DNA of 64,000 nucleotides from Octopus vulgaris (Eukaryota): contig OX597820.1 in the NCBI GenBank assembly GCA_951406725.2, forward strand, positions 38,874,001-38,938,000, read 5' to 3'. The position numbers and the translations under genes are program-made. The first letter of the stretch is position 1, and every line of letters starts with the position of its first letter. The notes beneath the pieces were generated by a model. That model saw nothing but the letters and a program-made list of their open reading frames with translations, made no database searches and was not told the origin of the DNA. This document shows, piece after piece, positions 18,495 through 47,208 of this stretch.

Positions 18495-19260
18495 AACCAG
18501 CTACCTTCGTGTAAATCTCTTCTATTATTAATCTTAGGTTTCTTTTGGTGTATGAGGATGGCCTCAGAGATTCTAAGGTTGCCCCTGTTCCGCTGTGTTG
18601 CCTTGATGTGCAATGTGAATTACCGAGTCTGGCATTTCCGTAGATGCTTCTTCACGGAGGTGTCTACCTTCATATGTTCCTTAATCCGTATATGCAGTTT
18701 TCTTGTCGTGCTTCTTATGTAGGGTGTGCCATATTTTCCACAGATGATCTCACATACAACATAGGTCCGCTGGCACAATTCAGGGTCATTGATAAGGTAG
18801 TTCCACAGCGTTCTGTCCTCGGAGTAGTGAGAGGTGCTGTTCTTGGACAGAGCTTTTCTCTGGGAAGGGCCGGTGTGCACTATCTGTATGTCGAGTCCTT
18901 CCCTGTCGACTGTGTGATGTATCGCTGCAGTAGTTCTGTCGTCAAAGTGTAGTAGAATCTCTGAGGTCATCCTCATACATCAAAAGAAAACTAAAATCAA
19001 CAATAGAAGAGAGTTACCGGAAGCTAGCTGGTTACTAATAGCAACATATTTCCGCGCATGTTCACTCCACACACGTTCACACACACGCACATCAGCAACA
19101 TTCGTCAATTTTTTGAGAATGGGGTCATAACCCCGAAATATTGAATACAAGGTAAGTCTACATTAATTCATATATTTGTTTTCTTGTGATTACCCTTTCA
19201 TTTACTTCGCATTGTTTTGGCCCTATCCACGATCCTTTATACAATATATTCTACACAATG
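18495..19260 (-). mobile_element. Penelope-like element 3' fragment (GIY-YIG) with an inverted partial pLTR
   Basis: Minus ORF LCQRTYVVCEIICGKYGTPYIRSTTRKLHIRIKEH...RISEAILIHQKKPKINNR is a decayed GIY-YIG. 18495-18575 recurs inverted at 18953-19033, followed by an HHR-like motif at 19107-19147. Confidence 0.75.
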
Positions 19261-44198: not shown

Positions 44199-44264
<66 letters not shown>

Positions 44265-44344
44265 GTGGAAAGGAACACACGAGTTGATATATATGAAAAA
44301 ACAAGTCAAAAATAGAAAATGCTAAGATAATTTTATAGTGAATC

Positions 44345-44388
44345 TTTCAGTACCGGTTTCGGTCATTTTGAGACCTTTTCAACTGTAA
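44345..44388 (-). ncRNA. Hammerhead with U3-A8 variant core in the PLE 3' pLTR
   Basis: Minus: ttacag-TTGAAAA-GGTC tcaaaat GACC-GAAA-CCG-GTA-ctgaaa; palindromic stem III ACCGGT. Confidence 0.75.
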
Positions 44389-45018
44389 CGATTAAATAAT
44401 TAAATTTAGAAAAATTAGAAGAAATTTTTTTTTAAAAGAATATTTCTGTAGTAGTGTTCAGATATAAGTAGCATTCTGCCTTTCTCTGACTCCCTTGTTT
44501 GCACTTGTGTGTTCGAGGTCGGTTTGAGTTCTTGGTAGGGTAGGTGAAGAATAAGGAGGCTGATGTGGAGAGGGGGTGGGGAAATCTGGGAATGCCTTAA
44601 TGGTCGTATTTTGAATGGTCAGTGGCTGACAGTAGTCGCAGTTCAATTCAGGAATTGTTTATGGAATTTGCGTAGGCGTTATACTGAAAGACATTAGTGA
44701 CAAGGTTAAGGGGTGGAAGGTGGAGAAGTAGAAGAAGAAGATGACGACGATGTTGTTGATGAAGAAGAAGAAGAAGAAGAAGAAGAAGAAGAAGAAGAAG
44801 GAGAAGATGGTGGTGATGATGGTGGTGATGATGATGACGACGATGATGATGATAATGATGATGATGAAGAAGAAGAGGAAGAAGAAGAAGAAAAAAACAG
44901 AGAAGGGAGAATATGAATGGGTGAAAGTATAGCTGTGATGGGGCTGATTAGTAATGGATTCTATGGAGTGTAATATTTGTGTGTGTATATATTTCTTTTA
45001 TTCTAAAGTTGAGGTATA

Positions 45019-47011
45019 TTAATTGTTTGTCGTAGACCCGTTAAGAAGTGGCTTGTATTTTGTAATAAAGAGATTTTCTTTACTTATTCGTTGTCTCGAG
45101 GTTGTATCGTCCCTAAATTGGTAGAGGGGGAAAATCCTGAAGTTTGGTGTTTTTTTGTTGGCGCAAGTATCTATGTGTTGGCTAAAAGCTATTTTTCTGT
45201 TTTGGGGAATTTTTATCTGGGATCTGTGCAGGGCCATTCGTTTACGCAAACCATTTTTTGTTTGGCCTATGTACTGCTCTTGACACCCGGAGCAGGTTAG
45301 TGAGTATATTAGGTTCTCCGAAGCACATGTGAAGTTGCTTTTCACTGTAAACCGTTGTCCCTGTTTGAAGGAGAACTCTGATCCCTCAATTAGATAGTCG
45401 CATATCCCGCAATTGGGTCTTCCACATTTTTTTACTGTCGGCTTCTGTGTTGAAGAGTGAATTCGGGCTTGTGTAAGGAGACTTTTCATGGATCTAGGCT
45501 GTCTTTTGCTTTTTATGATCGTGTGTGTTTGGAGGATTGTGTTCATTCTGTGGTCTTTTTTTAGGAGGGGTATGGTGTGGAGGATGGTGTCGAAGGCTTC
45601 GTTATTGAGAGGGTTGTGTGTGGAGATGTATGGTAAGGCTTTTGGTTGTAAGTTTTTCTTTGATTTGGGATGTCTCAGTTCCTTGATGTTAAGTTGAAGG
45701 GCACGTTGAATGCACTTGTCAATAAGTGAAGGTGGATAGTTTCTGGTGATAAGGGTATCTTTTAGTTCTTGTAGTCGTGTGTCTCTGGTGTTTGCGTTAG
45801 AGACTATAGTGCATATCCTTTTTGCTAGATTGAAGGGGATATTCATCCTGGTGTGTCTGGGGTGGCATGAATTGAATGGAAGATATTGCTTAGAGTCTGT
45901 AGGCTTATAGTATATGTCTGTTTCTATTATATTATTAGCTTTCTTAATGAGGATATCGAGGAAGGGGAGTTGTTGCTGGCTATATTCCATCGTGAATTGG
46001 ATGTTTACGTCCAGTCCGTTTAAAATTTCCTGGAATTCTATGAGTTTTTCTATATTTTTATGCCAAAGGATGAAACAGTCATCTAGATATCTCTTCCAGT
46101 TGTTTTCTATGTAGATGGAGAAAGGGCTGCCATATCTTTCTAGAACCTTACGATACAGACTGATCTCTAGGTATCCTATGACTAGGTTGGCAAAGGAGGG
46201 GGCCATTCGTGTACCCATCGCAGTCCCCGATTTTTGTCGGTAGAAGTTGTCATTGAAGGCGAAGAAGTTATTTTCCAGGATGAATTTAACCCCTTCTATC
46301 ACAAATTCTTTTTTGATGCGGTGTGGTAGTTCGTTGGCGTGATTCTCTAGCCAGAATTGGATTGCCTCTAGTCCTAGGTTGTGAGGGATATTGGAGTAGA
46401 GGTTGACTACATCGAAGGATACCAGTATGGTGTTTTTGTTTATAGTATTCGGTAGGTGATTGAGCATATCTAAGTCGTCCCTTATATAGCTTTTGACATG
46501 TTTGAGGAGTGGTTTTAACAGGGTGTCTAAAAAGTTACTGAGGCGGTGGGTTTCGCATGCGGGACCTGCTATTATGGGTCTCAATTTGAGGTCATTAGGA
46601 TTAGGGACTTTAATTATTTTGTCTGTAGCTATCTTGCATGCGTTGCTTATTTTTTTCACTTTTGTGGATCTTAGGTATACCGTAGAATTGGCTAGTTTTA
46701 CTTGTGAAATTGGTCATATAATCATATTCTTTGTCGGTGAGCCCTGCTTTGTATGGGTTTAATATGGATTTTAGTTCCTTCATTATTTTTTGTTGACTGT
46801 AGTTTTGTGCCTTTTCATAGTATGTTGTGTCTTCCAGCATAGAAAGTACCAAAGTTATGTAAAATGCCGTATCCATTAAGACAACAGCACTCCCTTTATC
46901 GGCCTCTTTGATTGTTATTGTTTTATCTTGTTTTAATTTGTTCAACTCAGCCCATTCTTTTTTGCTGAAGTTTGGTTTGTGTTTTTGTTTGTGCATCTGA
47001 ACACTGTGCAT
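45019..47011 (-). CDS. PLE reverse transcriptase / GIY-YIG endonuclease (N-truncated; one frameshift at the T7 run 46650-46656)
   Basis: EADKGSAVV (DKG motif), FYGIPKIHK, LRPII, SFDVVNLYSNIP, GTAMGTRMAPSFANL, RYLDDCF, LPFLDI, YYKPTD, SCHP, CGRPNCGIC, IYSLTCSGCQEQYIGQT, KYKPLLN. Joins ORFs 46610-47011 and 45019-46659. Confidence 0.93.
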
Positions 47012-47092
47012 CTGAATATCTGAACACTACTACAGAAATATTCTTTTAAAAAAACTTTTCTTCTAATTTTTCTAAATTTAATTATTTAATCG

Positions 47093-47136
47093 TTACAGTT
47101 GAAAAGGTCTCAAAATGACCGAAACCGGTTCTGAAA
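47093..47136 (+). ncRNA. Hammerhead with U3-A8 core in the inverted terminal copy
   Basis: Same as 44345-44388 but with triplet GTT instead of GTA. Confidence 0.7.
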
Positions 47137-47208
47137 GATTCACTATAAAATTATCTTAGCATTTTCTATTTTTGACTTGTTTTTTCATATATATATATAT
47201 ATATATAT

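What the first reader, a model, noticed from the sequence alone, without database searches (positions are those of the whole stretch)
44345..47136. Penelope hammerhead with a compensatory U3-A8 core (TTGAAAA instead of CTGANGA)
Both terminal repeats of a young PLE contain stem I, TTGAAAA, a perfect GGTC/GACC stem II, GAAA and the palindrome ACCGGT. The C3-G8 tertiary Watson-Crick pair of the active hammerhead is replaced by U3-A8, a double change known to preserve the pair. Standard CUGANGA searches would miss it. The 2-nt stem III loop implies activity only as a dimer, as proposed for minimal PLE HHRs (inference). The sense copy has GUA and the inverted copy has GUU.
Basis: partly seen in the sequence, partly recalled or inferred. 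Interest (0 to 1): 0.75.

Follow-up and report, generated by a model that had tools for sequence, protein, structure and literature searches.

The report
Penelope hammerhead with swapped core pair
A jumping-gene family in this animal genome carries an already described variant of a self-cutting RNA motif, and rare copies are fused to U6 RNA or to halves of other such motifs exactly at the predicted cut, which likely records cutting inside living cells.

Summary
Observation confirmed. Both inverted arms of a 5'-truncated Penelope-like element (PLE) carry a type I hammerhead with core TTGAAAA. It is the family state: 1,820 of 1,922 copies read TTGAAAA...GTA and one reads CTGAAGA; GUU is a rare point change. 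The U3-A8 swap is not new: it is published for Schistosoma PLE hammerheads (PMC4209133) and other natural hammerheads (PMC3088659). Stems vary compensatorily across 11 representatives.

This likely records cleavage in cells, followed by ligation or template jumping. The scan noted U6-at-cut fusions before in another genome (unchecked notes).

Against an essential role: ordinary junctions show no peak at the cut, typical copies are uncut, U3 is predicted to pair with A17, and a mismatched C3-A8 sister subfamily spread. The dimer step is untested; the two motifs here lie on opposite strands and cannot pair within one RNA.

The parts
44345..44388 (-). Sense (3' pLTR) type I hammerhead, U3-A8 core, GUA cut site; predicted cut between 44351 and 44350
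   Evidence: family state
47093..47136 (+). Hammerhead of the inverted arm, antisense to the ORF; N17 = U at 47130, a rare point change
44287..44465 (-). Left arm of the inverted repeat (3' end of the pLTR); 44287 is position +64 from the cut, the commonest family end
44261..44286 (-). Optional 'tail' (about +65 to +90 from the cut); equals the sequence ahead of ORF1 in the tandem unit of L061; abuts (TA)n
47016..47194 (+). Inverted 5' arm (copy of the pLTR end, no tail), abuts (TA)n
45019..47026 (-). 5'-truncated RT + GIY-YIG ORF (residues 116-749 of the L061 ORF2 translation); frame broken in an A run at 46650-46656 that is one base longer than in L061, L062 and L063 (mutation or assembly error)
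44466..45018 (-). 3' UTR with (TTC)/(TCA) microsatellite tract and upstream part of the pLTR

Best explanation
This is the terminal hammerhead motif of a high-copy, (TA)n-inserting Penelope-like retrotransposon whose family core has U3-A8 in place of C3-G8, and it likely cuts the element's RNA after GUA in cells, probably slowly and probably by pairing two copies through the ACCGGU palindrome or with help from the element's protein. Shown: anatomy, family state, compensatory stems, fusions at the predicted cut. Inferred: (1) cleavage leaves a 5'-OH RNA starting CUGAAA, 64-98 nt ahead of the two sites where copies end; (2) now and then that end is joined to an RNA with a 2',3'-cyclic phosphate (U6, or the 5' half of another hammerhead) by an RtcB-type ligase, or the RT runs off it and jumps template; (3) the element's RT copies the fusion into (TA)n. 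Most insertions come from uncut or re-ligated RNA. In this copy the right-arm motif is a by-product of inversion and is not on the sense RNA.
For: Core fixed: 1,820 of 1,922; 12 non-T at position 3, 5 non-A at position 8, 1 with both canonical; 30 of 30 core-blind loci TTGAAAA/TA. Wider descriptor: U3-A8 at least 2,298, C3-G8 107, C3-A8 47, U3-G8 21 matches (copies, not independent events). Across 11 hand-picked representatives, positions not fixed by the pattern pair 31 of 33 (stem II) and 29 of 33 (stem I) against shuffled means of 16.2 and 15.5, 0 of 20,000 shuffles reaching them. Fusions at +1: U6 in L166 and L177 (Rfam U6 matched to model position 105, ending at the junction) and in L348 and L349 (older subfamilies); all 4 U6 fusions found with this family are at +1. 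Hammerhead-shaped 5' halves ending in GTC at +1 in 4 insertions (L171, L179/L180, L199, L206). U6 also meets, by eye, the predicted 3' product of two other hammerhead families (L386, L355). In the positional control U6 is 2 of 8 junctions at +1 and 0 of 60 at the 10 other offsets. RtcB joins U6 cyclic-phosphate ends to 5'-OH RNA (PMC6789731 abstract). Co-fold gives 0.55-0.60 for inter-copy palindrome pairs.
Against: Ordinary junctions (inversions, (TA)n truncations) show no peak at the cut: 1, 4, 6, 8, 8, 5, 5, 4, 19, 5, 3 over -3..+8, with +1 = 8 and the peak at +6 (100 of 110 hits examined). All 30 sampled copies carry the uncut motif and end at +64 (20) or +90 to +98 (10). With GUA, U3 is predicted to pair with A17 in about 9 of 10 folds that form stem I, 2.3 kcal/mol more stable, like the inhibitory C3-G17 pair (PMC3884650). 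U6 fusions are common here and mostly involve SINE-like repeats, some at internal points (58 of 92 U6 ends fit three repeat starts), so U6 does not mark ribozyme ends only. The control pattern could not see the hammerhead-half donors, so their positional specificity is untested, and three of the four may share 1 nt of microhomology. A C3-A8 mismatch subfamily of a sister repeat spread. In Anolis PAc, hammerhead mutants did not affect insertion in vitro and no RNA reads began at the cut (PMC11167929). No cleavage assay was possible.
Confidence: 0.65

Rival explanations
1. The fold is kept mainly for another job (protein binding, RNA pairing, positioning RT starts 64-98 nt downstream); cleavage happens rarely and is dispensable for transposition.
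For: Flat junction profile; uncut typical copies; predicted U3-A17 trap; C3-A8 subfamily in about 20 loci; PAc mutants insert normally in vitro.
Against: The 3-8 pair and all other catalytic positions are kept across families with different stems; mismatched 3-8 states are a small share of matches (68 of at least 2,473).
Confidence: 0.2
2. Fusions at +1 arise without ribozyme cleavage, from RT stalling or nuclease breaks at the stem I / palindrome boundary followed by template switching.
For: U6 is fused to many repeats, also internally; template switching is an accepted route for U6 chimeras (PMC11838501 passages).
Against: Stalling should raise ordinary junctions at +1 and does not; fusions are base-exact at +1 in 4 of 4 U6 cases of this family, and donors that are hammerhead halves end at their own NUH.
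Confidence: 0.1
3. The motif is a decayed canonical hammerhead and inactive.
For: Monomer folds no better than shuffles; Rfam score below threshold.
Against: TTGAAAA is in 1,820 of 1,922 copies and CTGANGA in 1; sister PLE families at 47-55% protein identity also have U3-A8.
Confidence: 0.03

Closest known systems
U3-A8 minimal hammerheads of Schistosoma mansoni Cercyon PLEs (Cervera and De la Pena 2014, PMC4209133; parts 1-2 of 4 read, passages of supplement file 2; file 1 not searchable)
   Same: Type I motif in pLTRs, U3-A8 core (one listed as UUGAAAAA), palindromic stem III region, pairs on opposite strands at short distance, dimer model.
   Different: Here no extra base between A9 and G10.1, stem II is 4 bp, and stem III has a 2-nt palindromic loop (like their Drosophila, rotifer and mosquito variants); family is homogeneous; N17 = A. 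Their cleavage test used family Sm1; I saw no test of a U3-A8 PLE motif in the parts read.
Natural U3/A8 hammerheads (Perreault et al. 2011, PMC3088659; section 8 and passages read)
   Same: Same covariation; the paper states such cores were already shown active in vitro.
   Different: The section read does not link them to PLEs.
Anolis Poseidon PAc hammerhead (Frangieh et al. 2024, author name recalled; PMC11167929; second half of main text and passages read)
   Same: PLE hammerhead, two RT start sites giving an optional tail, AT-rich targets, 3-8 swap partly rescues.
   Different: C3-G8 core; needs protein; no in vivo ends found there, whereas fusions here sit at the cut.
U6/LINE-1 chimeras made by RtcB (Moldovan et al. 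2019, PMC6789731; abstract and start of introduction read)
   Same: Complete U6 3' end fused in sense to retroelement RNA and retrotransposed.
   Different: L1 junctions are variable; here the junction is fixed at a predicted ribozyme cut, and other ribozyme halves serve as donors too.
Neptune/Nematis EN+ PLEs (Craig et al. 2021, author name recalled; PMC8557442; passages read)
   Same: C-terminal GIY-YIG, CX2-5CxxC linker (CGRPNCGIC), inverted arms, tail, (TA)n targets.
   Different: Full unit has a separate 411-aa ORF1 overlapping ORF2 out of frame; clade not fixed by a tree.

Membership tests
Type I hammerhead ribozyme | Core N3-UGA-N-N8-A and GAAA with a Watson-Crick 3-8 pair | tested here: met
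   U3 GA A A8 A, GAAA; paired states dominate
Type I hammerhead ribozyme | Stems I and II with compensatory change; G10.1-C11.1 | tested here: met
   (11 hand-picked representatives, four of them closely related); invariant within the family, so no covariation there
Type I hammerhead ribozyme | A15.1-U16.1 pair and NUH site | tested here: met
   GUA / GUU
Type I hammerhead ribozyme | Stable stem III as a monomer | tested here: not met
   pair probability 0.0 in all monomer folds; usual for PLE motifs
Type I hammerhead ribozyme | Loop 1 - loop 2 tertiary contact | not tested
   no call
Type I hammerhead ribozyme | Self-cleavage after N17 | not testable with these tools
   indirect only: fusions at +1
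Type I hammerhead ribozyme | Rfam gathering score | tested here: not met
   23.5 and 22.9 bits against 52 (HH9)
PLE (minimal/palindromic) hammerheads | Located in the pLTR of a PLE | tested here: met
   L061 has the motif on both sides of ORF1-ORF2
PLE (minimal/palindromic) hammerheads | Palindromic 15-16 region allowing a dimer | tested here: met
   ACCGGU duplex -8.3 kcal/mol; activity as dimer untested
PLE (minimal/palindromic) hammerheads | Extra nucleotide between A9 and 10.1 | tested here: not met
   A9 is followed directly by GGTC; a consensus trait in PMC4209133
EN+ Penelope-like element | RT followed by C-terminal GIY-YIG with CCHH residues | tested here: met
   (GIY-YIG below cut-off; C, C, H, H read by eye)
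EN+ Penelope-like element | pLTRs, inverted 5' arm, optional 30-40-bp tail | tested here: met
Neptune/Nematis clades | CX2-5CxxC linker before the endonuclease | tested here: met
   CGRPNCGIC; motif definition
Neptune/Nematis clades | Placement in an RT tree with named references | not tested
   no named references among the homologues

The most novel reading that the evidence does not exclude
PLE hammerheads, including this U3-A8 / A17 variant, cut in living cells, and their 5'-OH products enter a cell-wide ligation pool with U6 and with the cyclic-phosphate halves of unrelated ribozymes. Cut-and-rejoin between different ribozyme families then swaps ends between mobile elements at a fixed base, a route by which retrozymes and other RNAs gain a PLE's RT-start tail and become mobile.
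Probability: 0.4. Interest if true: 0.75.

Novelty: new member of a known kind. Interest (0 to 1): 0.48.

Why it matters
The variant core alone matters little, since it is in print. Whether PLE hammerheads cut in vivo is open (PMC4209133 says in vivo evidence is absent; PMC11167929 found no reads at the cut). Base-exact fusions give a cheap genomic read-out of cutting and a testable link to RtcB. In this genome the ACCGGT-type descriptor finds U3-A8 about twenty times as often as C3-G8, so CUGANGA-only scans would miss most of this class. A sister repeat holds U3-A8, C3-A8 and C3-G8 subfamilies, a natural series for measuring how a catalytic tertiary pair changes through a mismatch.

Tried and rejected
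Decay of this copy: rejected. Pile-up of all 5' junctions at the cut: tested and not found. Expression and RNA ends: no RNA holder listed; only contigs could be laid, which cannot show ends or strand; no other letter at U3 or A8 among the 40 of 64 rows shown. Rfam: sub-threshold only. Prokaryotic genome contigs: no relative. Homologue search gave 658 RT-GIY proteins without clade names. No U6 fusion into ORF1/ORF2 among 92 U6 ends; 94 of 199 U6 3' ends were examined in all. No stimulatory structure after the slippery site. Papers not held, so not read: Lunse et al. on PLE hammerhead dimers (PMC5785218), Przybilski and Hammann 2007 (PMC1986816), Martick and Scott 2006 (PMC4447102); the first may already describe U3-A8 or mollusc motifs. 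Supplement file 1 of PMC4209133 could not be searched. Searches that found no paper on U6 fusions at PLE ribozyme cuts or on this motif in octopus: (open-licence library only). I did not determine the organism.

Full report
Observation. On the minus strand at 44385-44348, and on the plus strand at 47096-47133, the order is CAG, TTGAAAA, GGTC-TCAAAAT-GACC, GAAA, CCGG, TA or TT, CTG. The two motifs lie in inverted arms of about 179 nt that differ at three columns and flank a minus-strand RT + GIY-YIG frame. Both ends run into (TA)n. Rfam sees the arms only below threshold.

The element. L061 holds a full tandem unit: pLTR with hammerhead, tail, a 411-aa ORF1 without Pfam match, ORF2 (RT, CX4CX2C linker, GIY-YIG), 3' UTR, hammerhead. 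The window copy is 98.2% identical to it over 2,809 nt, starts inside ORF2, and has one extra base in an A run at 46650-46656 compared with three other copies. Its left end carries the optional tail, which is the sequence ahead of ORF1. Of 30 copies picked without regard to the core, 20 end 64 nt and 10 end 90-98 nt after the predicted cut, nearly all in (TA)n. This fits the two RT start sites reported for Anolis PAc (PMC11167929). The linker and target fit Neptune/Nematis as defined in PMC8557442; no tree was built.

Is U3-A8 the family state? Yes. The stem II-GAAA-CCGG word occurs 1,922 times; 1,820 read TTGAAAA...GTA. Twelve have another base at position 3 (several are junctions or indels), five at position 8, and one (L075) is CTGAAGA. 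With stem II free, the descriptor finds 478 more U3-A8, 107 C3-G8, 47 C3-A8 and 21 U3-G8; reversed controls gave 0-3. These are copies, not independent events. Two U3-A8 motifs with other stems lie beside RT-EN frames 47-55% identical to ORF2 (L121, L139). Across 11 representatives that I picked by eye (four closely related), free stem positions pair far above shuffles (31 and 29 of 33 against about 16).

What is known. U3-A8 in PLE hammerheads was reported in 2014 for Schistosoma (about 1,300 hits), with a PLE-linked UUGAAAAA core in the supplement. Natural U3/A8 was reported in 2011. The dimer model and low in vitro rates are in the 2014 paper. Three directly relevant papers were not held (see Tried and rejected).

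Does it cut? I looked for copies in which the sequence just after the predicted cut is preceded by a base other than A (45 hits; all read; classes by eye). Twenty-three are point changes or indels in the element's own upstream sequence, 6 are inversion junctions, 3 are (TA)n truncations, 1 joins a piece of the element's ORF1, 4 join SINE-like repeats (label by eye), 2 join U6 and 6 hits (4 insertions) join the 5' half of a different hammerhead-shaped motif ending in GTC. Rfam confirms U6 to its last model position at the junction. A search for U6 3' ends gave 199; 94 were examined (92 plus those two). Two more join older subfamilies at +1 (L348, L349), and two insertions join, by eye, the predicted 3' products of other hammerhead families (L386, with a T ambiguity; L355). 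None joins this family elsewhere. U6 and hammerhead 5' halves both end in a 2',3'-cyclic phosphate (U6: PMC6789731; hammerhead products: PMC3884650), the substrate that RtcB joins to a 5'-OH. Template jumping at an RNA 5' end would give the same DNA; both routes need an RNA that starts at +1.

Controls against. Junctions of all kinds over -3..+8 are flat, with 8 of 68 at +1 and a peak of 19 at +6 (100 of 110 hits; 22 own-sequence rows and 10 rows at +9 left out of the 68). U6 is 2 of 8 at +1 and 0 of 60 elsewhere, which is a small count. The control could not see the hammerhead-half donors. Most U6 fusions here are with SINE-like repeats, some internal. So cleavage products are at most a minor template.

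Rate and mode. The monomer has no stem III and folds no better than shuffles. Two copies can pair through ACCGGU. With GUA, U3 is predicted to pair with A17 whenever stem I forms (0.33-0.69 against 0.36-0.75), also in the dimer fold; the analogous C3-G17 state lowers rates 8- to 100-fold in stabilised hammerheads. A17 is also seen in other U3-A8 families (8 of the 30 loci read TA), so it is tolerated. In this insertion the two motifs are on opposite strands; a read-through RNA would form a 179-bp duplex that hides the ribozyme. A partner would be the other pLTR of a tandem unit (4,349 nt away in L061) or another RNA.

A side result. A 359-bp non-coding tandem repeat carries the same architecture with TTGATAA / TTGACAA, CTGACAA or CTGACGA. 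In a tree of 60 of 73 units plus an outgroup, with core and stem II columns masked, U3-A8 units are basal, C3 units form one clade (ultrafast bootstrap 100), and order inside it is weak (72 for 26 of 27 C3-G8 units). This suggests a return from U3-A8 to C3-G8 through a mismatch that still spread (22 units, 1.6% mean distance). The root rests on one partial unit.

Earlier notes of the scan, read after my own result, report U6 at PLE ribozyme cuts in another genome and a 359-bp retrozyme in this one; they are unchecked and not independent support.

Verdict. Real feature; member of the PLE type I hammerhead group by sequence and structure, catalysis not shown; core variant known. Likely active in cells (about 0.65-0.7), mode and necessity open. 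Interest 0.48.

Noticed in passing
L083-L161 (e.g. G000:C1:20002279-20004541; C4:80857199-80857948): 359-bp tandem non-coding repeat with U3-A8, C3-A8 and C3-G8 subfamilies; tree suggests a stepwise return to the canonical pair. L128/L162 joins this motif to a decayed PLE with 54-64% identity to ORF1/ORF2.
   Followed up: partly
L061:4208-4145 (minus strand): ORF1 and ORF2 overlap out of frame at a T TTT TTA heptamer, also in L063; no indel at 5% or more in contigs of 4 runs; no downstream structure predicted; an ATG follows in L061 but not L063. Possible -1 frameshift site.
   Followed up: partly
L178 (G000:C6:110675392 region): pLTR copy with 14 A>G changes among 17 substitutions over 138 nt, as expected of an A-to-I hyper-edited RNA that was reverse transcribed (inference).
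   Followed up: partly
L307-L396: U6 3' ends are frequent (199); 58 of 92 examined are followed by one of three repeat starts, mostly SINE-like 5' ends; a tandem cluster at C1:139422705-139429774 looks like true U6 genes.
   Followed up: partly
L077:700-1750: Two insertions with 41-nt head-to-tail duplications that place two hammerhead cores side by side.
   Followed up: no
L075 (G000:C13:524777): The single family copy with canonical CTGAAGA; pLTR 91% identical, shares a 10-bp duplication with the TTGAACA copy L081/L082.
   Followed up: partly
window 19110-19146 (+): Second U3-A8 hammerhead-shaped word (TTGAGAA, T bulge, GGGG/CCCC, GAAA, ATAT); no PLE frame found near it; may be chance.
   Followed up: no
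L163: A piece from inside ORF1 joined in sense to +1, as expected of a small circle or internal deletion.
   Followed up: no
P0032, P0047, P0077, P0088: Close relatives of ORF2 (44-50%) are labelled as proteins of bivalve gill symbionts; probably host DNA in those assemblies (inference).
   Followed up: no
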